Sequence record: OQ411014.1
Reading direction: 5' to 3' (one strand)
DNA length: 64,000 bases
From: Escherichia phage EJP2
The notes beneath the pieces were generated by a model that was not told where the DNA came from, made no database searches, and saw only the letters and a list, made by a program, of their open reading frames with translations. Both the position numbers and the translations under genes were made by a program. The number at the start of each line of letters is the position of its first letter. Positions within the stretch are counted from its first letter, which is position 1. Positions 16,624 through 57,230 of this stretch are shown in pieces.

Positions 16624-16655
16624 ATATAAAATTTTGTATATCTTTGGAGGATATC

Positions 16656-17525
16656 ATGGCAAACAAAAAATTACTACAAGAAGCTATTCAGGCTTTTGCA
16701 AATGGTGAACACGCTGTTGCTGATAAAAAACTACGTAAATATTTTATCGAAACCGCTCAAGAAATTAACAAGAAACTAGAAGAAGAAATGGAAGCGGAAG
16801 AGTGTGAAGAAATCTCTGAAGCGGAAGAAGTAGAAGACTGTGAAGAAGTCGTTGCTGAAGACATTCATTCTGGTCAATCAGAAGATCTAACTGGTGAAAT
16901 TCAATATGCACTAGGTGAAGCTGAAGACGAAGAAGTTGAAGCTGGCGAAGAAGAAATTGGTATCGACGGTGACGAAGAAGTTGCTGGCGAAGAAGAAGTT
17001 GAAGTTGAGTCTGGTGACCTACCAACTCAAGACCAATGGGCTTCCATTAAAGATGCAATTGATTCTCTAAGCAAGCGTTTCGATGAAATCGAAGGCGAAG
17101 GCGACATTGACCTAGATGTTGAAGGTGATGATGTTGGTGATGAAGAAGAAATTTCCGATTTCGAAATTGACGATGCAGGTGAAGAAGAATTTGGTGATGT
17201 ACAGTTCGGTGATGAGAAATTTGGCGAATCTTACAAAATGAAACCAGTTTCTAAACCAGGTAACGATGCAGCTAAATCTAAATCTCCAGTTGCACCAAAC
17301 GCTAAATCTCCAGTAGACGGCGTTGACCCAGTTAAGATCAAAGATGGTAACGTTGTTACTAACGATGGCGAACTTCTAAAAAATAAAGATGCTGACACTG
17401 CTAAAGTGGAAGACATGAACAACGTTATGGATAATGCTAAAGGTCTAATGAAAGACGTTAAGAAACCAGCTAATAAAGCTGACAAATCTAAGTCTGTAGT
17501 TCCATCAAAAGCACCAAAGTTCTAA
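16656..17525 (+). CDS. Highly acidic prohead core / scaffold-like protein
   Basis: D/E-rich with strong GGAGG site before ATG 16656 (track start 16644 is TTG); position between portal and protease matches the T4 gp67/gp68 region. Confidence 0.5.
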   Translation: MANKKLLQEAIQAFANGEHAVADKKLRKYFIETAQEINKKLEEEMEAEECEEISEAEEVEDCEEVVAEDIHSGQSEDLTGEIQYALGEAEDEEVEAGEEEIGIDGDEEVAGEEEVEVESGDLPTQDQWASIKDAIDSLSKRFDEIEGEGDIDLDVEGDDVGDEEEISDFEIDDAGEEEFGDVQFGDEKFGESYKMKPVSKPGNDAAKSKSPVAPNAKSPVDGVDPVKIKDGNVVTNDGELLKNKDADTAKVEDMNNVMDNAKGLMKDVKKPANKADKSKSVVPSKAPKF

Positions 17526-19454: not shown

Positions 19455-20630
19455 ATGTCACAACTATTAACTGAATCTAAATGGGCACAAGTTAAGAGCA
19501 AACTAACCGAAGGTCTAAAAGACAACCGTAAACTAGTAATGGAATCTGTTCTAGAAAACCATCGTAAAGTAATGCTAAACGAAAACGCTTCTGGCGGTGC
19601 AACTTCTGCTGGTAACATTGCTACCCTAAACAAAGTAATTCTACCAATCATGCGTCGTGTAATGCCAACCGTTATCGCTAACGAAATCATCGGTGTTCAA
19701 CCAATGTCTGGCCCAGTTGGTCAAATCCATACCCTACGTGTTCAATATGCTGATAACGCACCAGGCGTTGTAGCTGGTGAAGAAATGCTATCCCCATACA
19801 AAATCGCTAAGTCCTATACTGGTGATGTGAATGGCGATAACGAAAATCCACGTGCTGCTCCTACTAGTCAACTAGAAGGTACTATGGGTCGTCGCGTTAA
19901 CATCCGTATCCTACGTGAAACCGTTGAAGCGAAATCTCGTCGTCTATCCGCTCGTTGGACTGTTGAATCTGCACAAGATGCACAATCTCAACACGGTATC
20001 GATATCGAAGCTGAACTAATGGCTGCTATCGCTCAAGAAGTTACTACTGAAATCGACCAAGAGCTACTACACAAACTACGTGCTCTACCTGGTGCTGCTG
20101 CTGTAACTTATGACCAATCCAAAGTTACTGGTGTTGCTACTTTCGTTGGTGATGAACATGCTGCTCTAGCTACTCTAATCAACCGTCAAGCGAACGAAGT
20201 TGCTCGTCGTACCAAACGTGGTGCTGCAAACTGGGCTGTTGTTTCCCCAACCGCACTAACCATTCTACAGTCTGCAACTACTTCTAGCTTTGCTCGTACC
20301 ACCGAAGGTACTTTCGAAGCACCAACTAACGTTAAGTTTGTTGGCGTACTAAACAGTACTATGCGTATCTATGTTGATACCTATGCAGATGACAGTACTG
20401 ATGTACTAATCGGTTACAAAGGTAATGCTGAAACTGATGCTGGCGTGTTCTACTGCCCGTACATCCCACTAATGGCTTCCGGTACTGTAATGGACCCTAA
20501 CACTGGGGAACTCGTAACAACATTCTTAACCAGATATGGCTACGTACAGTTGACCGACAGTACCAGTTCTCTTGGTAACGCGGCTGACTACTACAGCAAA
20601 ATTGCTATCCGCAACGTAACCTTCATGTAA
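19455..20630 (+). CDS. Major capsid protein, T4 gp23/gp24 family
   Basis: IANEIIGVQPMSGPVGQ and ETDAGVFYCPYIPL match recalled gp23 blocks (IAFDICGVQPMNSPTGQ; EMDAGIYYAPYVAL); strongly biased codon usage; TAAGGAGA RBS. Confidence 0.9.
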   Translation: MSQLLTESKWAQVKSKLTEGLKDNRKLVMESVLENHRKVMLNENASGGATSAGNIATLNKVILPIMRRVMPTVIANEIIGVQPMSGPVGQIHTLRVQYADNAPGVVAGEEMLSPYKIAKSYTGDVNGDNENPRAAPTSQLEGTMGRRVNIRILRETVEAKSRRLSARWTVESAQDAQSQHGIDIEAELMAAIAQEVTTEIDQELLHKLRALPGAAAVTYDQSKVTGVATFVGDEHAALATLINRQANEVARRTKRGAANWAVVSPTALTILQSATTSSFARTTEGTFEAPTNVKFVGVLNSTMRIYVDTYADDSTDVLIGYKGNAETDAGVFYCPYIPLMASGTVMDPNTGELVTTFLTRYGYVQLTDSTSSLGNAADYYSKIAIRNVTFM

Positions 20631-34496: not shown

Positions 34497-37800
<3,304 letters not shown>

Positions 37801-39364: not shown

Positions 39365-40426
39365 ATGAAATCTCTAGCTGAAATTCGTGCTCAACTACAA
39401 GCTCAAGAAGAAAAAGCCACCGCAATCAAAAACGGTACTTTTACTGGTGAACGTAAAGCTGACGCTTTCCTAGCTTTCTGGAACATCCCAGAGAACACTC
39501 CACTAAATCTACGTTTTCTACCAGATGCGGATGAGAACAACCCATTCTTCTGGCGTGAACGTGACATGATTACACTTGAGTTCAACGGTATCGTTGGTAT
39601 GCACTCTGATAAAGTACGTGTTCAAGTACCATGTAATGAAATGTGGGTTCCAAAATCCTGTCCTGTAACTAACGAACTACGTAAGTGGTACGAAGTTGCT
39701 AAAGAGACTGGTGATGAAGCTCTAAAACAACAAGCAAGCAAATACTGGAAAAAGAAATCCTATCTACTACAATGCTTTATCGCTCCTGATTCTGTAGCTG
39801 TAAAGGATGATATCGCTCCAGAAAACCCAATCCGTCGCGTTCTAGTGAATAAAGAGATTTTCAGTAAAATCACTTCTATTCTAATGAACCCAGGCATCAA
39901 AGAAATGCCAGTTCACTATGAAGGTGGTCGTGACTTTGGTGTAGTAAAAACTAAAAACGGTGGTGGCTTCAACCAGTACAATATGTCCCAGTTCTCCATG
40001 TCTGAGCGTCCATTGAATACTGCTGAACGTGCTGCAATCGAAACATACGGTCTATTCGACCTAGGCGAATTCATGCCAAAACAACCAACTCCTGAAGAAC
40101 TACAAGCAATTGCTGAAATGTTCGAAGCATCAGTTGATGGCAAACCATATGACCCTGCACGTTGGGCTTTCGCTTACCGTCCAGCAGGTGTTCAAAAACC
40201 AACTAGCGGTGCACCTTTTACTCCAGCACCACAACAAGCTCCTACTACTCCTGCTCCACAAGCACCAGTACAGGAAAGTGTTCAACAACCTGCTCCACAG
40301 GCTCCAGTACAACAACCTGTACAACAGCCAGTACAAACTCCAGTAACTCCTGTTACTCCAGCGGCATCTACCGCTCCAGTATCAGCAGCAGATTTGGTTG
40401 CTCGTCTAAAGATGCAAAACAAATAA
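39365..40426 (+). CDS. Single-stranded DNA-binding protein (T4 gp32-like) with Pro/Gln-rich C-terminal tail
   Basis: LNLRFLPDADENNPFF and CPVTNELRKWY resemble gp32 VIRFLPSKNDEQAPF and CNELRKKY; biased codon usage; C-terminal PAPQAPVQ repeats. Confidence 0.7.
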   Translation: MKSLAEIRAQLQAQEEKATAIKNGTFTGERKADAFLAFWNIPENTPLNLRFLPDADENNPFFWRERDMITLEFNGIVGMHSDKVRVQVPCNEMWVPKSCPVTNELRKWYEVAKETGDEALKQQASKYWKKKSYLLQCFIAPDSVAVKDDIAPENPIRRVLVNKEIFSKITSILMNPGIKEMPVHYEGGRDFGVVKTKNGGGFNQYNMSQFSMSERPLNTAERAAIETYGLFDLGEFMPKQPTPEELQAIAEMFEASVDGKPYDPARWAFAYRPAGVQKPTSGAPFTPAPQQAPTTPAPQAPVQESVQQPAPQAPVQQPVQQPVQTPVTPVTPAASTAPVSAADLVARLKMQNK

Positions 40427-40511: not shown

Positions 40512-41630
40512 ATGAAAATGACATCTGGTTTCGCTAACATCCTAAAAAGCAGTACTGCATCTGTAAAGAAAAACTCTGGCGTTAGTATGGGCTTCCATGA
40601 TCCTGACACTTGGGTTAGTACTGGTAACTTAGCATTGAACTACCGTATCAGTGGAGACTTTCGTAAAGGTATCCCACTAGGCAAAGTAACTATGTTTGCT
40701 GGTGAATCTGGTTCTGGTAAATCATTTATCGTTAGTGGAAACATTGCTCGTGAAGCACAACAACAAGGTATCTTCGTAGTACTAATTGACTCCGAAAACG
40801 CATTGGATAGTGATTGGCTTCGTGCTCTAGGTGTTGATACTTCTGAAGAAAAACTTCTAAAAATGAACATGGGTATGATTGGCGACGTTGCTAAATTCAC
40901 TTATGACTTCATTGAAGGTTATCGTAAAGAGTATGAAAACGTTCCACGTGAAGAACGTCAAAAAGTACTGTTCATCATTGACTCTATCGGTATGTTGAAT
41001 ACTGAAATTGCTAATGACCAAATGAAAGCTGGTACTATGAAAGGTGACATGGGTCACAAACCAAAACAACTAAAAGCGTACATCACTAACTGTGTGAACT
41101 CTTTAGGTGCATTGAATATGGGTATGGTCTGTGTAAACCACAGTTACGAATCCCAAGACATGTTCAACCCTGACCCAAAAATCAGTGGTGGTTCTGGTCT
41201 AGTATATGCATCCTCAATCGTAGTTGCGATGGGTAAACTAAAATTGAAAGAAGACCAAGATGGTAACAAAACATCTGATGTGAGCGGTATCCGTTCAAAA
41301 TGTAAAGTCATGAAGACTCGTTACAACAAACCATTTGAAGACGTAGAAATCAAAATCCCTTACGAGCGTGGCATGGACCCACTAAGTGGACTATTTGATA
41401 TGTTCCTCAAATACGAACTACTAACCAAATCCGGTAACCGTTATATGTATGTTGATATCGATACTGGTGAACAAATCCTCATGTTTGAAAAAGCATGGCG
41501 TCAAAATACAAACAAATCGCTTGAACTAGTAATGGAACAGTTCAATCGCCATCCTAATATCTCTCCTATCCTAGAAGATGATAAAGGTGATGAATCCTTT
41601 GGTGATGATATCCCAGACACTGAAGAGTAA
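40512..41630 (+). CDS. uvsX: RecA-family recombinase UvsX
   Basis: Walker A FAGESGSGKSF; RecA-like core; 372 aa, close to T4 UvsX (391 aa). Confidence 0.85.
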   Translation: MKMTSGFANILKSSTASVKKNSGVSMGFHDPDTWVSTGNLALNYRISGDFRKGIPLGKVTMFAGESGSGKSFIVSGNIAREAQQQGIFVVLIDSENALDSDWLRALGVDTSEEKLLKMNMGMIGDVAKFTYDFIEGYRKEYENVPREERQKVLFIIDSIGMLNTEIANDQMKAGTMKGDMGHKPKQLKAYITNCVNSLGALNMGMVCVNHSYESQDMFNPDPKISGGSGLVYASSIVVAMGKLKLKEDQDGNKTSDVSGIRSKCKVMKTRYNKPFEDVEIKIPYERGMDPLSGLFDMFLKYELLTKSGNRYMYVDIDTGEQILMFEKAWRQNTNKSLELVMEQFNRHPNISPILEDDKGDESFGDDIPDTEE

Positions 41631-43053: not shown

Positions 43054-44538
43054 ATGAGTAATATTTGTAAGCTAACGCTTCAGGATGAAGTGAATTGTAA
43101 ATTTGAAGAGTTACCTATACAAGTTCGTAATGAGATGGTGAAAGCCGTCTCATACGTGCTACCGTATGCTAAATTCACCCCAGCAGGTCGTTTAGGACGT
43201 TGGGATGGTAAAGTAAACTTTATGAACTTAGGTGGTAGTACTTATTACCATATGCTTGATAAGTTACTACCAATCCTTGAGAAACATAACATTAGTATTG
43301 ACTTGGAAGATCAACGTATCCAACACAACTTCGAGTTCGACGAAATTGATGAGAATCTTTTCAGTTATGTTGAATTTGGTGCAGGTCACCACATGGAAGG
43401 TAAAAGTGTTGTTCTTCGTGAACACCAAGTGAACGCAATCAATGAATGTCTACGCAATCCGCATGGTCTATTGTTAGCTAGTACATCTTCTGGTAAGACA
43501 CTTATTACTGCTGGGCTATCGAAGTGCGTAGAAAAGTATGGACGTAGTATCATCATCGTTCCAAGTACTGACCTAGTACAGCAAACGTATAATGACTATG
43601 AAATGGTTGGATTAGATGCTGGTGTATTCTATGGTGATAAGAAAGAGTTGGGACACCAACACACTATCACAACATGGCAATCATTGAACTCTCTTTGGAA
43701 ACAAACCAAAAAGAATGAAATCCAACTGTCTGAACAAGACATTCATGACTTTATTGATGGTGTCGTATGTGTAATGGTCGATGAAGCCCACACAGCAGCA
43801 GCAGAAGCTCTACAATCAGTACTGGGACAAGTAATGAAGGATATCCCACTACGTTGGGGTCTAACTGGTACTATCCCTAAAGACCCAGTAGTAGCGGCTA
43901 AGATACGTTGTAATGTTGGTGATGTAATCTATACTATTACTGCAAAAGAACTACAAGATAAGAAAATTCTTAGTACTTGTAATGTAAACTGTATCAAACT
44001 AAAAAGTACTTTGAAGTTCGCAACATATCCAGAAGAGATGAAATATCTTGTAACTGACCGTGAGCGAATGGCGTACATTGCACAACTCATTTCTGCAATA
44101 TCCAGTTCAGGTAATACCTTGGTGCTGGTGGATAGACTTGAGGCAGGTGAACTACTTTGTGAGTTCTTGGGGATTCCCAAATCAGAATTCGTTCGAGGAC
44201 AAACTAAGAAGAAAGACCGCGAAGCATCGTATGGTGAGATTCGCTGGGCTGATAACCAAATACTGATTGCAACGTATGGTGTAGCGAGTACAGGTATTAG
44301 TATTTCACGTTTATACAATGTAGTACTGATTGAGCCAGGAAAGAGTTTCGTTCGTACCATCCAGTCCATTGGGCGTGGTTTGCGTCGTGCTGAAGATAAA
44401 GACCACGTAGAGATTTACGATATCAGTGGGTCTAACAAATACTCTGCTAAACACTCCAGAGAACGCATCGCGTACTATGAAGAAGTTCAGTACCCGTATA
44501 CAAAATTGGATGTAAAAGATTGGCAACAAAAAATGTGA
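43054..44538 (+). CDS. Superfamily 2 DEAH-box DNA helicase (UvsW-like)
   Basis: Motif I ASTSSGKT, motif II MVDEAHTAAA, C-terminal helicase motifs GRGLRR. Confidence 0.65.
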   Translation: MSNICKLTLQDEVNCKFEELPIQVRNEMVKAVSYVLPYAKFTPAGRLGRWDGKVNFMNLGGSTYYHMLDKLLPILEKHNISIDLEDQRIQHNFEFDEIDENLFSYVEFGAGHHMEGKSVVLREHQVNAINECLRNPHGLLLASTSSGKTLITAGLSKCVEKYGRSIIIVPSTDLVQQTYNDYEMVGLDAGVFYGDKKELGHQHTITTWQSLNSLWKQTKKNEIQLSEQDIHDFIDGVVCVMVDEAHTAAAEALQSVLGQVMKDIPLRWGLTGTIPKDPVVAAKIRCNVGDVIYTITAKELQDKKILSTCNVNCIKLKSTLKFATYPEEMKYLVTDRERMAYIAQLISAISSSGNTLVLVDRLEAGELLCEFLGIPKSEFVRGQTKKKDREASYGEIRWADNQILIATYGVASTGISISRLYNVVLIEPGKSFVRTIQSIGRGLRRAEDKDHVEIYDISGSNKYSAKHSRERIAYYEEVQYPYTKLDVKDWQQKM

Positions 44539-44551
44539 TAAAACGTATTTT

Positions 44552-44562
44552 TGTGATATAAT
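44552..44562 (+). promoter_or_regulatory. Early-type promoter TGTGATATAAT
   Basis: Exact box about 40 nt before the 44601 start. Confidence 0.55.
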
Positions 44563-44600
44563 CAGATGTGTTGATAAACAAAATAAAAGGAATTATATAA

Positions 44601-45038
44601 ATGGAACTTAGATCTAGCATTGCATTCATCGCTGACCAGAAGACACTAGACGTATTAGATGTGTTTTTGAATGACGATTCTATTATGGATGATATGGTAT
44701 CCTCAATTGATTACATTCAAGAGTTAGAACGTGCAGACACTAACGTCTGGCGTTGTAACACCAACGGTGATGAATGGGTCAACATCTATGAATTACAAGA
44801 GCGTATTGCAGCTAAGGATGAATCTCTAAAGTTTGATATCATCTATGCCAGTACTGATGCTAAGACGTTCATTGACGTGATTAGTATTAGTGGCAACTTC
44901 GATTCGTATGTAGATACTGATTTAGACAAAGTACAAGAACTATGTGAAACCTATGGTTTGGAGTTTTACGGTGCAGACGAAGTAGAAGATTACTACTACG
45001 ATGATGAAGAAGAATCTGAAGATGATGAGTACTACTAA
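44601..45038 (+). CDS. Highly acidic small protein (145 aa), early-expressed
   Basis: Strongly D/E-rich, C-terminus YYYDDEEESEDDEYY; first gene after an early promoter. Confidence 0.5.
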   Translation: MELRSSIAFIADQKTLDVLDVFLNDDSIMDDMVSSIDYIQELERADTNVWRCNTNGDEWVNIYELQERIAAKDESLKFDIIYASTDAKTFIDVISISGNFDSYVDTDLDKVQELCETYGLEFYGADEVEDYYYDDEEESEDDEYY

Positions 45039-45049
45039 GGAGAAATGAG

Positions 45050-45553
45050 ATGAAAGTATTGACACCAGAAAATAAAACATTCGATATTGATATGGTTACT
45101 GACTGTATTCCAGAAGAGATGTTCTGTGTATTGGATTTGAGTGAGTATGGGGATTCAGATTTCTATTTCAAACATATCCTACACACTGTATCATTCAACA
45201 GTATCAGTGTGGATTTACAAATTGGTGATCGAGTGGTTCAAATCCCACTAGGTTGGCAGATTCTTCTAGGTGATGAAGAAACTGGTATGATTGAGATGTG
45301 CACTATCGAGAACCTTTTGAATATGAAAGATCCACTCGCTTATGTATACAATCCGATTCGTTCTATGTATGCTAAGTTTGAACCAATCAAAGTACTGCAA
45401 GTATATACTCTAACGCAGAAATGGCAGATTCCGTACCTACAGAAAAAGAACCTACTGTGTGTACCACTGCAATCAGGCTCTAATCCTCCGTGTGCATTCT
45501 TTGCGGATGAGAACGAGAAAATTCAAGATTTATATTTAGGAATTGGTGAGTAA
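45050..45553 (+). CDS. Hypothetical protein (167 aa)
   Basis: ORF with GGAGA RBS. Confidence 0.5.
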   Translation: MKVLTPENKTFDIDMVTDCIPEEMFCVLDLSEYGDSDFYFKHILHTVSFNSISVDLQIGDRVVQIPLGWQILLGDEETGMIEMCTIENLLNMKDPLAYVYNPIRSMYAKFEPIKVLQVYTLTQKWQIPYLQKKNLLCVPLQSGSNPPCAFFADENEKIQDLYLGIGE

Positions 45554-45554
45554 C

Positions 45555-46403
45555 ATGTTTGATTTCAGTACAACTAAAAAATCTTCAGAAGAAATAGAAC
45601 TGACCAAAGAAAGTAATATCAAACTGGACATGAACAATCTGTTAGCTAAGATTGATACAGCAGATTACAAATATTATGATTCACTCACTGATAAGGAGAA
45701 GAAGCACTTCACGCCTTATACAGTACTAAGGTGGGTGAGTTCACTTGATGACAGTATGCTCGTAACCTATGGTGCGAAGCGTGTTGAGGATATTTTTGGT
45801 AAGTGGAGTGCTGGTGGTAAAGAAGCACTAAACGAGCTACGTACTGAACTTCAATCTGCTGGCATCAATATCATCAGCATTGCAAAATATGAACACGGGA
45901 AATATGACTGGCGAATTAAGTTCGCCGTCCCGAACAAAGAAACTGCTGATAATCTAATGGAAGCTATGAAAGAGTTCACAATCACTGGCGGTGAAATCAT
46001 CTCTTTGATTGATAGTCTAACTGCTAAGTATCATTTGATTATGTTGAATGACATGGTGAATGATGGTTTCTGGAGTCTCAAGGAACACCCTGAGTTGGTA
46101 TATCAGTTATTATGTTCAGTATCTGATATGGTTGGGGCAGAGAAGCGAGCACACACATGGCTTCCTTTCCCAAAAGGTCTAAAAAACGTTGACAAAACCA
46201 TCTTTGAGATTATAAAATCTACACAAACTGGATTGACAGCAAACCAACTCACCGAAGAAGAGTATAAGATTTTGTTGTCAGGTTACAATAAGAGTTCTTT
46301 TACAGAGTTGCTTGATGAGATGGGATATCAAGAATCTGAGAAGAAAAGTACATTGAAACAATTCAAATCGGAATGTGAGAAATATGACCAGAGCTACAAG
46401 TAA
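45555..46403 (+). CDS. Hypothetical protein (about 282 aa)
   Basis: ATG 45555 preceded by GGTGAG; the track start 45543 is TTG. Confidence 0.5.
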   Translation: MFDFSTTKKSSEEIELTKESNIKLDMNNLLAKIDTADYKYYDSLTDKEKKHFTPYTVLRWVSSLDDSMLVTYGAKRVEDIFGKWSAGGKEALNELRTELQSAGINIISIAKYEHGKYDWRIKFAVPNKETADNLMEAMKEFTITGGEIISLIDSLTAKYHLIMLNDMVNDGFWSLKEHPELVYQLLCSVSDMVGAEKRAHTWLPFPKGLKNVDKTIFEIIKSTQTGLTANQLTEEEYKILLSGYNKSSFTELLDEMGYQESEKKSTLKQFKSECEKYDQSYK

Positions 46404-47094
46404 GAGCACAGATTTTCAATGTTGTTTCTGTGATAAGAAATTCAAACGTGAAGAAACAATTCTTACTCATAAATGCACTAAACGCGACCGATACAATGAC
46501 CGAGACTCCCGCCAAATGCGGGAGGCTTTTCGTATCTATATGCATTTTATGACTTTCAACCGTATGAGCATTAAAAAAGGCGTAGAGCCTTTAATGCATT
46601 TCATCAAGTCCAAGTACTTCAATGAGTTCTATGATCTTGCGGGGTATGTACTACAAACTGACATACTAAACAAAGAAGATTTCATAACTAATATTATAAG
46701 TACTGGAAAAAAGGTATATGAATGGACTACCACAAAAACTCTAACAGAGTGGACTATTCAATGTATCAAGAATGAACACCCTACATATGCTGTAGAAAGA
46801 TCCATCCCTGCCTTAGTTGAATGGGGAGCATTGAATGAATGTGAATGGAACACTTTCTTTGCAAATGTTAGTACTGAACGTGCGATTCGTTGGCTTGAGA
46901 CAGGAAAGATCTCACCTTGGTTGATCTATACTGCTGCCCCTGAGAGTGGGAATAAACTATTATCGCGTTTTTCGGACACTGAATTGGATTACATTTACCA
47001 GTATATTGAACCTACGTTCTTCACTCGTAAGATGATCAAATACGATGCCGAGTGTAAACGTATTCGTGAATTACTGACAGGAGCCGGATTATGA
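46375..47094 (+). CDS. Hypothetical protein with N-terminal Cys/His zinc-finger-like motif
   Basis: FQCCFCDKKFKREETILTHKCT; start uncertain (46375 or 46384); overlaps the upstream gene. Confidence 0.45.
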   Translation: MRNMTRATSKSTDFQCCFCDKKFKREETILTHKCTKRDRYNDRDSRQMREAFRIYMHFMTFNRMSIKKGVEPLMHFIKSKYFNEFYDLAGYVLQTDILNKEDFITNIISTGKKVYEWTTTKTLTEWTIQCIKNEHPTYAVERSIPALVEWGALNECEWNTFFANVSTERAIRWLETGKISPWLIYTAAPESGNKLLSRFSDTELDYIYQYIEPTFFTRKMIKYDAECKRIRELLTGAGL

Positions 47095-55910: not shown

Positions 55911-55921
55911 TGTGATATAAT
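55911..55921 (+). promoter_or_regulatory. Early-type promoter TGTGATATAAT
   Basis: Exact box immediately upstream of the AGGAG RBS of the nuclease gene. Confidence 0.55.
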
Positions 55922-55933
55922 AGGAGTACAAGG

Positions 55934-56647
55934 ATGTACATACCACCAATCGTAGAACGATTCACTTATGCAGGTTACGAGAGAATAGAAGGCGGCCCAG
56001 AAGGTCGCCTTTATTCAACTCCAAGTGGTAATCTTCCTTCAGTAACTACAATATTATCTGCAACTGATAATAATGAAGGATTGAAGCAGTGGCGGGAATT
56101 CGTTGGAAACGAAAAAGCAGATGCAATCTGTTTGGAAGCAACAACAATTGGTACGTTTATGCACGAAAATCTGGAGAACCGATTGATTGGTAAACCTGAT
56201 CATGAAGGTGGAATGCCAGTACGAGTACTAGCTCGTAGAATGGCAGATGTTATTCAGAATGAAGCATGGCCTCATATAAATGAGGTATGGGGACAAGAAG
56301 TACCGTTGTACTATGAAGGATTATGGGCTGGCACTACTGACTTGGTAGGAGTTCACAATGGACTACCTACAATTATGGATTACAAAAATTCACGTAAAGA
56401 AAAGAAATGGAAACAGATTGAGAACTATCGTATGCAGCTTGCAGCTTATGCTCTTGCTCATAACTATCAGTTCGGTACGGATATAAATAGAGGCGTGATT
56501 TTTATTTGTGTTCGAAAAGATCCAAACAATCCAACATATCAAGAGTTCGTTGTTGAAGGAGATGACTTCAAAGAGGCTTGTAATATGTGGATTGAACGAG
56601 TTGAACAATATTATACTTTACGCGGAGAAATACAACATGGGAACTAG
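55934..56647 (+). CDS. PD-(D/E)xK-family nuclease (possible recombination exonuclease)
   Basis: GTTDLVGVHNGLPTIMDYKNSRK and YRMQLAAYALA fit the D...(D/E)xK...QxxxY arrangement of RecB/lambda-exo-like nucleases. Confidence 0.5.
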   Translation: MYIPPIVERFTYAGYERIEGGPEGRLYSTPSGNLPSVTTILSATDNNEGLKQWREFVGNEKADAICLEATTIGTFMHENLENRLIGKPDHEGGMPVRVLARRMADVIQNEAWPHINEVWGQEVPLYYEGLWAGTTDLVGVHNGLPTIMDYKNSRKEKKWKQIENYRMQLAAYALAHNYQFGTDINRGVIFICVRKDPNNPTYQEFVVEGDDFKEACNMWIERVEQYYTLRGEIQHGN

Positions 56648-57230
56648 AACTATGAAACAAGACATTTTTACTATCAAAGCAATCGAATCTAAAGGTTATG
56701 AACTAGAAGAACTAATCACTCGTTCCGATGAAGAGATCGAGAAACTCCCACTAAGTGCTAAACTAATCACTTTCATTCAAGAGCTAAAAACTCGTGGTGG
56801 TAAAACTGCTGACCAACTAGCAGAACAAATCGCAGACCTAATGATGCGTGAAGAAAATGAACCAGCACCTGCTGTAGTTGAAGCATATGCAGATGTTAGC
56901 GAAGAAGTAGAAGAACTACCAACTATTACAATGTTAGTTGATGATGAAACTGAAATTGTAGTACAAGGTGACGAAGTTACTATCGAAGCTGAAACTATTG
57001 TCGTAGAAACTAAAGAAGTCCCAGTAGAACGCACTGAAGCTGCTCCTGATGATATTGCAGTCATCCGTGAAGCACTAGCAGCGAAAGAAGCAAAATCTTT
57101 CCAACCTTTCATCAAACACTTGAAAGCAGCAGTTCCAGCATCTATCCTAGACGCAGTAGACAGTACTGTAGTATCTGATCTAATCGATGCTCGTATTGCT
57201 GAAGTCAAGGCAGCAGCAGAAAAGAAATAA
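56637..57230 (+). CDS. Highly acidic protein (about 197 aa) with high-expression codon bias
   Basis: GGAGA RBS before ATG 56637; E/D/V/T-rich repeats (EEVEELPTITMLVDDETEIVVQGDEVTIEAETIVVETKEV). Confidence 0.5.
   Translation: MGTRTMKQDIFTIKAIESKGYELEELITRSDEEIEKLPLSAKLITFIQELKTRGGKTADQLAEQIADLMMREENEPAPAVVEAYADVSEEVEELPTITMLVDDETEIVVQGDEVTIEAETIVVETKEVPVERTEAAPDDIAVIREALAAKEAKSFQPFIKHLKAAVPASILDAVDSTVVSDLIDARIAEVKAAAEKK

What the first reader, a model, noticed from the sequence alone, without database searches (positions are those of the whole stretch)
44552..45038. Early-promoter-driven, extremely acidic small protein: candidate DNA-mimic or anti-defence factor
The first gene after the TGTGATATAAT box at 44552 encodes a 145 aa protein densely packed with Asp/Glu and ending in YYYDDEEESEDDEYY. 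Early-expressed, highly acidic small proteins are the typical form of DNA-mimic anti-restriction proteins. Another acidic protein with strong codon bias (56637-57230) follows the PD-(D/E)xK nuclease gene.
Basis: inference. Interest (0 to 1): 0.5.

Follow-up and report, generated by a model that had tools for sequence, protein, structure and literature searches.

The report
Acidic partner protein beside phage helicase
A real, extremely acidic 145-residue protein of a giant E. coli phage is always encoded right after the phage's UvsW-type recombination helicase, so it is more likely a helper of the phage's own DNA recombination and replication machinery than a dedicated anti-restriction DNA mimic, though its function is untested.

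Summary
ORF 44601-45038 encodes a 145-aa protein with 28% Asp/Glu, net charge -32 and pI about 4.05, the most acidic ORF in the window. It ends in YYYDDEEESEDDEYY and follows a recurrent sigma-70-like extended -10 box.

Both the core charge (-14 to -24) and the tail are conserved down to about 25% identity. In every locus with enough flank, the gene sits directly 3' of the UvsW-type helicase, inside the gp32-SSB/UvsX/UvsY/exonuclease/helicase ... primase/DnaB module.

T4 has an unrelated small acidic protein, UvsW.1, at the same position. It also ends in an acidic run plus a terminal aromatic residue. The best reading is therefore a non-homologous analogue of UvsW.1, an acidic accessory factor of the recombination machinery. 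An anti-defence DNA mimic remains possible but less likely. All functional claims are inference.

The parts
44533..44562 (+). Sigma-70-like promoter. A weak -35-like element (ATGTGA/GTGATA) overlaps the helicase stop codon. It is followed by the extended -10 box TGTGATATAAT at 44552-44562.
   Evidence: Sequence. The promoter scan gives 10 of 12 matches with TG before the -10. The box recurs 9 times exactly, all on the + strand, far above the shuffle expectation. Aligned contexts show a shared TTGAGA-N18-TATAAT architecture. The box is conserved upstream of the Hallingskeid orthologue but not in distant relatives.
44586..44590 (+). Ribosome-binding site AAGGA, 10 nt upstream of the ATG.
   Evidence: Read directly from the sequence.
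44601..45038 (+). Gene for the 145-aa hyper-acidic protein (family phrog_16541). In this window it is the first cistron of a six-gene operon that runs to about 48072.
   Evidence: ORF listing. Composition. PHROG match with E = 6e-66. 59 homologue clusters. Downstream genes abut or overlap it.
44601..44972 (+). Folded core, residues 1-124. It has a ferredoxin-like alpha/beta fold (beta-alpha-beta-beta-alpha-beta-beta-beta-alpha) and net charge -19.
44973..45035 (+). Disordered acidic tail with aromatic residues, residues 125-145: ADEVEDYYYDDEEESEDDEYY (net -13, 5 Tyr).
   Evidence: pLDDT is below 50 for residues 126-145. The tail sequence is not conserved, but its composition is: net -11 to -16, no Lys/Arg, 2-5 aromatic residues, and an aromatic residue within the last 6 positions in 23 of 24 family members.
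43054..44538 (+). UvsW-type SF2 helicase. It is the invariant upstream neighbour and the most likely partner.
   Evidence: Pfam ResIII/DEAD/Helicase_C domains. The best PDB match is T4 UvsW 2oca, E = 1e-23. BLASTP to T4 UvsW gives 25% identity over 480 aa, E = 1e-30.
45050..45553 (+). Downstream cistron: a free-standing protein with a Hint (intein-like) fold, 167 aa. It is context, not part of the acidic protein.
39365..40426 (+). gp32-like SSB of the same module. It lacks the acidic C-terminal domain of T4 gp32 (context for the alternative partner hypothesis).
   Evidence: The translation ends in a P/Q/A-rich linker followed by SAADLVARLKMQNK. The same architecture is found in every related locus examined.

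Best explanation
The protein is a conserved accessory factor of the phage's own UvsW-type helicase and recombination-dependent replication module. It is a non-homologous positional and compositional analogue of T4 UvsW.1.

Shown: it has a small, strongly anionic ferredoxin-like core and a disordered C-terminal tail rich in acidic and aromatic residues.

Inferred mechanism: the tail, and possibly the anionic core, docks on a basic nucleic-acid-binding or tail-binding surface of a phage-encoded partner. The UvsW-like helicase is the most likely partner, and the gp32-like SSB is the alternative. The docking would resemble the way acidic C-terminal tails of T4 gp32, T7 gp2.5 and bacterial SSB bind their partners or compete with ssDNA. 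The effect would be to tune loading, hand-off or DNA binding during recombination and fork processing.

In this phage the gene is transcribed from a sigma-70-like early/middle promoter, as the first gene of a six-gene replication-module operon.
For: Synteny. In all 9 loci with an intact 5' flank the gene lies immediately 3' of the UvsW-type helicase, within SSB/UvsX/UvsY/RNase T-like exonuclease/helicase/TARGET/Hint-fold protein/.../primase/DnaB. These loci are the window, Hallingskeid, RaK2, XaC1, Vibrio phage 2.275.O and four metagenomic lineages of 25-40% identity.

Transcription. In L002, L006, L003 and L007 the gene abuts the helicase gene (13-32 nt), and the TGnTATAAT box lies after it. 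Its linkage there is to the helicase, not to a private early promoter.

The helicase. It is a full-length UvsW homologue.

The T4 parallel. T4 and relatives encode UvsW.1 at the same position. UvsW.1 is 76-90 aa with pI 4.2-4.7, and in T4, Aeromonas phage 65, RB16 and JSE it ends in an acidic run plus a terminal Phe. The window has no UvsW.1 homologue.

Selection on charge. Core and tail charge and the near-terminal aromatic residue are conserved although the tail sequence is not.

Distribution. The family is confined to this lineage: 22 clusters at 50% identity among 1.84 billion representatives, 20 of them proteins of 128-156 aa, one a 52-aa fragment, and two spurious repeat proteins.

Precedent from the literature. 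The T4 gp32 C-terminal region recruits Dda, and its acidic end is thought to occupy the ssDNA site (PMC11551737). T4 UvsW is reported to bind the gp32 acidic tail (Perumal et al. 2013, seen only as a citation in PMC5314882). The T7 gp2.5 acidic tail binds partners and competes with ssDNA (PMC10359462).
Against: No interaction was tested.

The function of UvsW.1 is itself unknown (PMC1524935; PMC7824862), so the analogy transfers a context, not a mechanism.

The protein is not homologous to UvsW.1. Its fold is alpha/beta, whereas UvsW.1 is trihelical, and there is no sequence signal.

It evolves faster than the helicase, UvsX and SSB: 30-39% identity against 56-69% in the same genome pairs. Fast evolution is also typical of host-directed proteins.

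A few family members have only 8-11-residue tails, so the long tail is not indispensable.

In the window and in Hallingskeid the gene has its own promoter and heads the downstream operon.
Confidence: 0.45

Rival explanations
1. Anti-defence DNA mimic. The polyanionic protein occupies the DNA-binding site of a host nuclease. The target could be a type I restriction-modification enzyme, as for T7 Ocr or ArdA. It could also be RecBCD, as for lambda Gam and T7 gp5.9, which are themselves encoded among recombination and DNA-metabolism genes.
For: The protein is small, has pI about 4 and 28% Asp/Glu, and has almost no basic residues. This is conserved across the family. gp5.9 is likewise small with pI 4.0, and DNA mimics have no common fold (PMC9836394; PMC3439906). 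In this phage the gene follows a sigma-70-like promoter. It evolves faster than neighbouring core genes. The best fold match, Api92/YubB (DUF1281), is a family encoded in the leading region of plasmid F next to an anti-restriction gene, ssb and psiB. That region is enriched in anti-defence genes according to my own recollection of the literature, which was not checked here.
Against: There is no profile or fold match to any known mimic or anti-restriction family. Position is strictly conserved inside the core replication/recombination module across very divergent phages from enterobacterial, Xanthomonas, Vibrio and metagenomic sources. There is no sign of horizontal spread to other phages or plasmids. 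In distant relatives the gene lacks its own promoter. About 15% of the protein is a disordered tail rather than a rigid DNA-shaped surface. The link to YubB is at fold level only: hhalign gives P = 0.05 and 0.4, and there is no Pfam hit.
Confidence: 0.2
2. Trans-acting acidic domain for a tail-less SSB, similar to eukaryotic DSS1. The gp32-like SSB of this lineage has lost the acidic C-terminal region. The acidic protein supplies it in trans. It would compete with ssDNA on the SSB and promote SSB turnover and hand-off to UvsX/UvsY or to helicases.
For: In all nine target-bearing phages with a readable SSB C-terminus, the SSB ends in a non-acidic P/A/Q/T-rich linker plus a basic amphipathic tip of the form (S/T)xDL(L/V/I)A(R/K)LK. 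It does not end in an acidic domain. In the outgroup PA5oct the gene after the helicase is a non-acidic 83-aa protein with no significant similarity to the family (E = 4). There the SSB linker itself carries an acidic patch with an aromatic residue, EDDNDDLPWED. The acidic end of T4 gp32 is proposed to occupy its own ssDNA site (PMC11551737), and the T7 gp2.5 tail competes with ssDNA.
Against: The comparison rests on a single outgroup. Atu_ph07 also has the basic tip, and whether it has the target family was not resolved. T4 has both an acidic gp32 tail and UvsW.1, so the two features are not mutually exclusive. The gene is linked to the helicase, about 4 kb from the SSB gene. No interaction data exist.
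Confidence: 0.15
3. Another role for an anionic ferredoxin-like domain. It could be a small-ligand or metal-binding regulator (ACT-like), a chaperone or charge-neutralising partner for a basic protein of the same operon, or a weak enzyme.
Against: No catalytic motif or family match was found. Only one column is fully invariant in the broad alignment. This reading does not explain the conserved acidic tail or the strict adjacency to the helicase.
Confidence: 0.08

Closest known systems
T4 UvsW.1 (PDB 2JPN), the small conserved protein encoded immediately 3' of uvsW in T4-like phages
   Same: The gene position is the same, directly after a UvsW-type helicase gene. Both proteins are small and acidic: UvsW.1 has pI 4.2-4.7 and net -6 to -13. 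Both have a C-terminus made of an acidic run ending in an aromatic residue...DSDDEVEESF in T4 against ...ESEDDEYY here. Both are conserved across their lineages, and both have unknown function (PMC1524935).
   Different: No sequence similarity was detected (HMM and tblastn). The folds differ: UvsW.1 is trihelical (PMC7824862), whereas this protein is a ferredoxin-like alpha/beta domain. This protein is twice as long and far more acidic (net -32), and its tail carries several aromatic residues.
Acidic C-terminal tails of ssDNA-binding proteins (T4 gp32 A-domain, T7 gp2.5, E. coli SSB-Ct)
   Same: All are disordered acidic segments with hydrophobic or aromatic residues near the end. They mediate protein recruitment and compete with ssDNA (PMC11551737; PMC10359462).
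   Different: Here the tail is attached to a ferredoxin-like domain, not to an OB-fold SSB. The cognate SSB of this phage lacks such a tail.
Phage DNA-mimic inhibitors (T7 Ocr, T7 gp5.9, lambda Gam, ArdA)
   Same: They share small size, pI about 4 and a dense display of Asp/Glu. gp5.9 and Gam are also encoded among recombination and DNA-metabolism genes (PMC9836394; PMC3439906).
   Different: There is no sequence or fold relationship. The known mimics are compact, mostly helical dimers with rigid charge arrays. This protein is an alpha/beta core with a disordered tail, and it is a strictly syntenic core-module gene.
Api92/YubB, the DUF1281 + DUF1281_C ferredoxin-like family (PDB 2IJR; plasmid F yubA/yubB)
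   Different: Sequence identity is 7%. No family member hits the Pfam models, and profile-profile comparisons are not significant. DUF1281 proteins are about 280 aa, are not hyper-acidic and lack the tail. Their function is also unknown.

Membership tests
UvsW.1 family (T4-like phages) | Detectable sequence homology to UvsW.1 | tested here: not met
   The family HMM against T4 UvsW.1 matches only the low-complexity acidic end (score about 0). tblastn of UvsW.1 against the window gives no hit better than E = 0.98.
UvsW.1 family (T4-like phages) | Small helical (trihelical) fold | tested here: not met
   The AF2 model is a beta-alpha-beta-beta-alpha-beta-type ferredoxin-like domain. UvsW.1 is described as trihelical (PMC7824862).
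UvsW.1 family (T4-like phages) | Gene located immediately 3' of the UvsW helicase gene | tested here: met
   The helicase is a UvsW homologue. Adjacency holds in all 9 loci with an intact flank.
UvsW.1 family (T4-like phages) | Acidic protein with an acidic C-terminus ending in an aromatic residue | tested here: met
   UvsW.1 of T4, Aeromonas phage 65, RB16 and JSE ends in ...EESF...VEDF...EEKF and ...EEDF. In the target family, 23 of 24 members have an aromatic residue within the last 6 positions.
DNA-mimic anti-restriction proteins (Ocr, ArdA, ArdB/KlcA, Arn) and RecBCD mimics (Gam, gp5.9) | Sequence or profile membership in a known family | tested here: not met
   Pfam, PHROGs, NCBIfam and PDB sequence searches give no such hit.
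DNA-mimic anti-restriction proteins (Ocr, ArdA, ArdB/KlcA, Arn) and RecBCD mimics (Gam, gp5.9) | Fold similarity to a solved DNA mimic | tested here: not met
   [not shown]
DNA-mimic anti-restriction proteins (Ocr, ArdA, ArdB/KlcA, Arn) and RecBCD mimics (Gam, gp5.9) | Small, very acidic protein (pI about 3.5-4.5) with surface Asp/Glu | tested here: met
   pI 4.05 and net -32. Core charge of -14 to -24 is conserved across the family.
DNA-mimic anti-restriction proteins (Ocr, ArdA, ArdB/KlcA, Arn) and RecBCD mimics (Gam, gp5.9) | Charge array that superimposes on DNA phosphates; binding and inhibition of a host nuclease | not testable with these tools
Api92/YubB (DUF1281 / DUF1281_C) | Match to Pfam PF06924 or PF18406 | tested here: not met
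   None of 24 family members hits these models, even at E up to 10. Plasmid F YubA/YubB do hit them.
Api92/YubB (DUF1281 / DUF1281_C) | Profile-profile similarity | tested here: inconclusive
   hhalign gives P = 0.049 for a local alignment over the last beta-alpha-beta unit and P = 0.4 against the longer alignment. The DUF1281 alignments had low diversity.
Api92/YubB (DUF1281 / DUF1281_C) | Fold similarity to 2IJR | tested here: met
   [not shown]
SSB-type acidic C-terminal tails (gp32 A-domain, gp2.5, SSB-Ct) | Disordered acidic tail with a terminal hydrophobic or aromatic residue | tested here: met
   pLDDT is below 50 for residues 126-145. Tail composition.
SSB-type acidic C-terminal tails (gp32 A-domain, gp2.5, SSB-Ct) | Tail attached to an OB-fold ssDNA-binding core | tested here: not met
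   The core is ferredoxin-like. The phage's OB-fold SSB is a separate gene without an acidic tail.

The most novel reading that the evidence does not exclude
The family is a new structural class of nucleic-acid mimic: an anionic Api92/YubB-like ferredoxin core with a polyanionic tail carrying aromatic residues. It would serve as an obligatory, vertically inherited regulator of recombination in RaK2-like jumbo phages. It would act like eukaryotic DSS1, competing with ssDNA on a gp32-type SSB that has lost its own acidic domain, or gating the DNA site of the UvsW helicase. It would take the role that the unrelated UvsW.1 plays in T4-like phages, and so would finally give that conserved orphan a testable function.
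Probability: 0.15. Interest if true: 0.65.

Novelty: new variant of a known kind. Interest (0 to 1): 0.4.

Why it matters
Small hyper-acidic phage proteins are routinely flagged as anti-restriction DNA mimics from composition alone. This case shows that genomic context can point elsewhere.

Two unrelated protein families occupy the same slot after the UvsW helicase in two large phage groups: UvsW.1 in T4-like phages and phrog_16541 in RaK2-like jumbo phages. They share only acidity and an acidic C-terminus ending in an aromatic residue. This convergence suggests that the feature matters for UvsW-dependent recombination or fork processing, a step of the T4 paradigm that still has an orphan component.

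The case also highlights three features of this lineage's replication module:
- an SSB that has exchanged the acidic domain for a basic amphipathic tip;
- a free-standing Hint-fold protein;
- a C2H2 zinc-finger protein.

If the rival reading is right instead, this would be a DNA mimic with a new fold, related to the uncharacterised YubB family of plasmid leading regions.

Tried and rejected
**Searches that found nothing or nothing significant**
- Sequence searches of the protein and of family profiles against Pfam, PHROGs, NCBIfam and PDB gave only the uncharacterised phrog_16541, plus sub-threshold hits driven by the acidic tail (YihI, CC_PcsB).
- Homology to T4 UvsW.1 was rejected: different fold and no sequence signal.
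- Homology to DUF1281/YubB could not be established. I recovered plasmid F yubA/yubB and collected relatives, but hhalign was not significant. The by-eye similarity at the N-terminal beta1-alpha1 and the C-terminal beta-alpha-beta therefore stays a lead only.
- PA5oct gp216, the 83-aa protein after the helicase, looked by eye like the C-terminal half of the family, but the family HMM gives E = 4.
- Scans of IMG/VR with three distant members, and one with the broad alignment, found nothing or were not possible. The look-up of encoding contigs and the phage collection supplied the contexts instead.

- The afdb50 fold library was unavailable.

**Checks that were uninformative or neutral**
- I looked for compensating acidic tails on the helicase, UvsX or UvsY in the short-tail subgroup. 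There is no such pattern, and UvsX is acidic-tailed everywhere.
- I annotated the neighbouring genes to see whether a missing replisome function, such as a helicase loader or a clamp, could be assigned to the target. The neighbours turned out to be a Hint-fold protein and a zinc-finger protein, which does not settle it.
- No paper on EJP2 or RaK2 mentions the gene.

Full report
**1. The observation**

The ORF at 44601-45038 on the + strand is real and matches the description: ATG start, 145 codons, C-terminus YYYDDEEESEDDEYY. It has 24 Asp and 17 Glu against 9 Lys/Arg, giving net charge -32 and computed pI 4.05. Among 61 plausible ORFs in the window it has the lowest pI and the most negative charge density.

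The TGTGATATAAT box lies at 44552-44562 in the 62-nt gap after the upstream gene. An AAGGA ribosome-binding site sits 10 nt before the ATG. The box belongs to a genuine promoter family. With at most one mismatch it occurs 13 times, against 3.5 +/- 1.7 in shuffles. The nine exact copies are all on the + strand. Most share a TTGAGA-like -35 element 18 nt upstream of TATAAT. The same box precedes the SSB (twice), the primase and a nuclease gene. It therefore marks the DNA-metabolism gene class. 'Early' is plausible but unmeasured.

**2. Where the window comes from**

Megablast finds only RaK2/121Q/GAP32-type jumbo myoviruses. The closest in that collection is Erwinia phage Hallingskeid at 78% nucleotide identity. 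The neighbouring 167-aa protein is 100% identical to EJP02_281 of Escherichia phage EJP2, a 349-kb coliphage (PMC10213699). That paper does not mention the acidic protein, and neither does the RaK2 paper.

**3. The protein family**

PHROGs places the protein in phrog_16541, of unknown function (E = 6e-66). Pfam, NCBIfam and PDB sequence searches give nothing meaningful.

- The word-indexed search of 5.8 billion proteins returns 59 clusters, all 139-146 aa. All those with a source name come from jumbo phages of this type or from E. coli and Salmonella assemblies that carry such phages.
- The exhaustive profile search of 1.84 billion representatives finds 22 clusters. Twenty are standalone proteins of 128-156 aa, one is a 52-aa fragment, and two are spurious repeat proteins.
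- There are no fusions and no members in other kinds of phage or in plasmids.

**4. Architecture**

The AF2 model (pLDDT 79-92 over residues 1-120, pTM 0.72) is a ferredoxin-like alpha/beta domain. Residues 126-145 have pLDDT below 50 and are predicted disordered.

Alignments show a conserved core and a tail whose sequence drifts while its composition is held. Across 24 members down to about 25% identity:
- the core carries net -14 to -24;
- most tails carry net -11 to -16, have no basic residue and contain 2-5 aromatic residues;
- 23 of 24 members have an aromatic residue within the last six positions;
- three of the 24 (P0075, P0079, P0080) keep the anionic core but have tails of only 8-10 residues and net -4 to -5, and the Vibrio phage 2.275.O orthologue likewise has an 11-residue tail.

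Both the anionic core and the acidic, aromatic-bearing tail therefore appear to be selected features.

**5. Fold relatives**

I recovered yubA/yubB from the leading region of plasmid F. They carry DUF1281 and DUF1281_C and match 2IJR. No member of the target family hits those Pfam models, and profile-profile comparison is not significant (P = 0.05 and 0.4). The relationship is therefore at fold level only, and DUF1281 has no known function.

**6. Genomic context, the decisive evidence**

In Hallingskeid the gene order is SSB, UvsX, UvsY, DNA polymerase exonuclease subunit, DNA helicase, the target, three hypothetical proteins, further genes, primase, DnaB-like helicase.

The same order recurs in four very divergent metagenomic lineages whose target proteins are only 30-39% identical to the window's. 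It also recurs in RaK2 (ORF119), Xanthomonas phage XaC1 and Vibrio phage 2.275.O. In all nine loci with an intact 5' flank, the gene directly follows the helicase.

That helicase is a full-length homologue of T4 UvsW. Its best PDB match is 2OCA (E = 1e-23), and BLASTP to T4 UvsW gives 25% identity over 480 residues (E = 1e-30).

The promoter is not a family feature. It is conserved in Hallingskeid. In L002, L006, L003 and L007 the gene abuts the helicase gene, and the TGnTATAAT box lies downstream of it, in front of the next gene. In L004 and L008 a hairpin separates it from the helicase gene. What is conserved is the position next to uvsW, not early-promoter drive.

**7. The T4 parallel**

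T4-like phages encode UvsW.1 immediately after uvsW. It is conserved and its function is unknown (PMC1524935). It has been described as a trihelical potential partner of UvsW (PMC7824862).

I extracted the T4 sequence and confirmed it against PDB 2JPN. It is 76 aa with pI 4.24 and net -12, and it ends ...AELEDSDDEVEESF. Orthologues from Aeromonas phage 65, RB16 and JSE also end in an acidic run with a terminal Phe.

The window has no UvsW.1 homologue, and the target family shows no sequence similarity to UvsW.1. Two unrelated small acidic proteins with acidic C-termini ending in an aromatic residue therefore occupy the same slot after UvsW in two large phage groups. This is the strongest argument that the protein serves the helicase and recombination system. 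It transfers a context, not a known mechanism.

**8. A second contextual clue**

The gp32-like SSB of the window ends in a P/Q/A-rich linker and the basic amphipathic tip SAADLVARLKMQNK. It lacks the acidic domain of T4 gp32. All related loci show the same design.

In T4 gp32 the C-terminal region recruits partners such as Dda, and its acidic end is proposed to occupy the ssDNA site (PMC11551737). UvsW is reported to bind the gp32 acidic tail (Perumal et al. 2013, seen only as a citation).

In the outgroup PA5oct the gene after the helicase encodes a non-acidic 83-aa protein that is not significantly related to the family. Its SSB linker carries an acidic patch with an aromatic residue. This fits the idea that the acidic function is supplied in trans in the RaK2-like lineage. 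However, it rests on one outgroup, and T4 has both features. I keep it as a variant hypothesis.

**9. Weighing the readings**

*For an anti-defence DNA mimic:*
- the composition, which resembles gp5.9 (pI 4.0) and Ocr;
- the sigma-70-like promoter in this phage;
- somewhat faster evolution than the helicase, UvsX and SSB;
- the fold-level link to a family found in a plasmid leading region.

*Against it:*
- strict synteny in the core module across hosts and deep divergence;
- no horizontal spread;
- no match to any known mimic;
- a disordered tail rather than a rigid DNA-shaped body.

A RecBCD-directed mimic encoded in a recombination module, as with lambda gam or T7 5.9, is the most credible form of this rival.

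My estimates are:
- 0.45 for an accessory factor of the phage's own UvsW/recombination machinery;
- 0.20 for a host-directed mimic;
- 0.15 for the SSB-directed variant;
- about 0.08 for other roles;
- the remainder is unassigned.

No step of any mechanism has been shown. What is shown is the composition, the predicted fold, the conservation and the context.

**10. Novelty and interest**

The family is uncharacterised and is not a member of any named family. In kind it resembles known things: acidic tail-bearing accessory proteins and DNA mimics. I therefore rate it a new variant of a known kind, with moderate interest (0.4). The convergent UvsW.1 parallel and the unusual SSB make it a tractable entry point to an old orphan of the T4 recombination system.

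**11. Side observations**

- The next gene encodes a free-standing Hint (intein-fold) protein. It is more conserved than the helicase.
- The 239-aa protein has a C2H2 zinc finger.
- The 293-aa virion protein at 16644-17525 is almost as acidic as the target.

Noticed in passing
[not shown]
   Followed up: partly
window 39365-40426 (+); also L001, L002, L004, L006, L008, L013-L015, L011, L012: The gp32-like SSB lacks the acidic C-terminal domain of T4 gp32. It has a P/Q/A/T-rich linker and a conserved basic amphipathic tip (SAADLVARLKMQNK; consensus xDL(L/V/I)A(R/K)LK). By eye, the tip resembles the protein's own N-terminus (KSLAEIRAQLQAQ) and the T4 gp32 N-terminal cooperativity motif as I recall it, which was not checked here. 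RaK2 has two copies of the tip. PA5oct and Atu_ph07 share the tip.
   Followed up: partly
L016 (T4 112677-114440), L017, L019, L020: T4 UvsW.1 and its orthologues in Aeromonas phage 65, RB16 and JSE are acidic (pI 4.2-4.7). All end in an acidic run with a terminal Phe, a motif like those of SSB C-terminal tails. I did not find this described in the papers searched.
   Followed up: partly
window 46375-47094 (+): This 239-aa protein of the same operon (phrog_11058, unknown function) has an N-terminal C2H2-type zinc finger (FxCxFCDKxFKRxxxLxxHKC). A profile search against the PDB hits eukaryotic-type zinc fingers, with E = 1.5e-4.
   Followed up: partly
It belongs to phrog_15452 (unknown function). 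It overlaps by 11 nt the end of an exonuclease gene (55934-56647, phrog_298), which follows another TGTGATATAAT box at 55911.
   Followed up: partly
window 16644-17525 (+): This 293-aa protein is nearly as acidic as the target (30% Asp/Glu, net -55, pI 4.09). It matches a virion structural protein family (phrog_15696). It shows that extreme acidity in this genome is not specific to candidate DNA mimics.
   Followed up: no
window 35164-37800 (+): The large terminase subunit is 878 aa here, and 889 aa in RaK2. In Hallingskeid the annotated large terminase is 547 aa, and in XaC1 it is annotated as two genes. This suggests an insertion, a fusion or an annotation difference in the N-terminal ATPase region.
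   Followed up: no
window 5605, 10490, 28844, 39165, 39261, 44552, 49454, 55911, 62427 (+): These are nine exact copies of TGTGATATAAT, all on the + strand. Most have a TTGAGA(C/T)A element 18 nt upstream of TATAAT. Two lie in tandem before the SSB gene. Together they form a well-defined promoter class for the DNA-metabolism genes of this phage.
   Followed up: partly
L011 (PA5oct) 20355-20606: In PA5oct the slot after the UvsW-like helicase holds an 83-aa, non-acidic protein (gp216). Its C-terminal half resembles the target family by eye (FLNIISGDFD...IIEKY against FIDVISISGNFD...LCETY). The family HMM gives only E = 4, so the relationship is unresolved.
   Followed up: partly
UvsX genes: window 40512-41630 and orthologues in L001, L002, L004, L006, L008, L013-L015: All UvsX orthologues of this lineage end in acidic tails of about 20-30 residues (for example ...EDDKGDESFGDDIPDTEE). 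Acidic tails therefore occur on more than one protein of the module.
   Followed up: no
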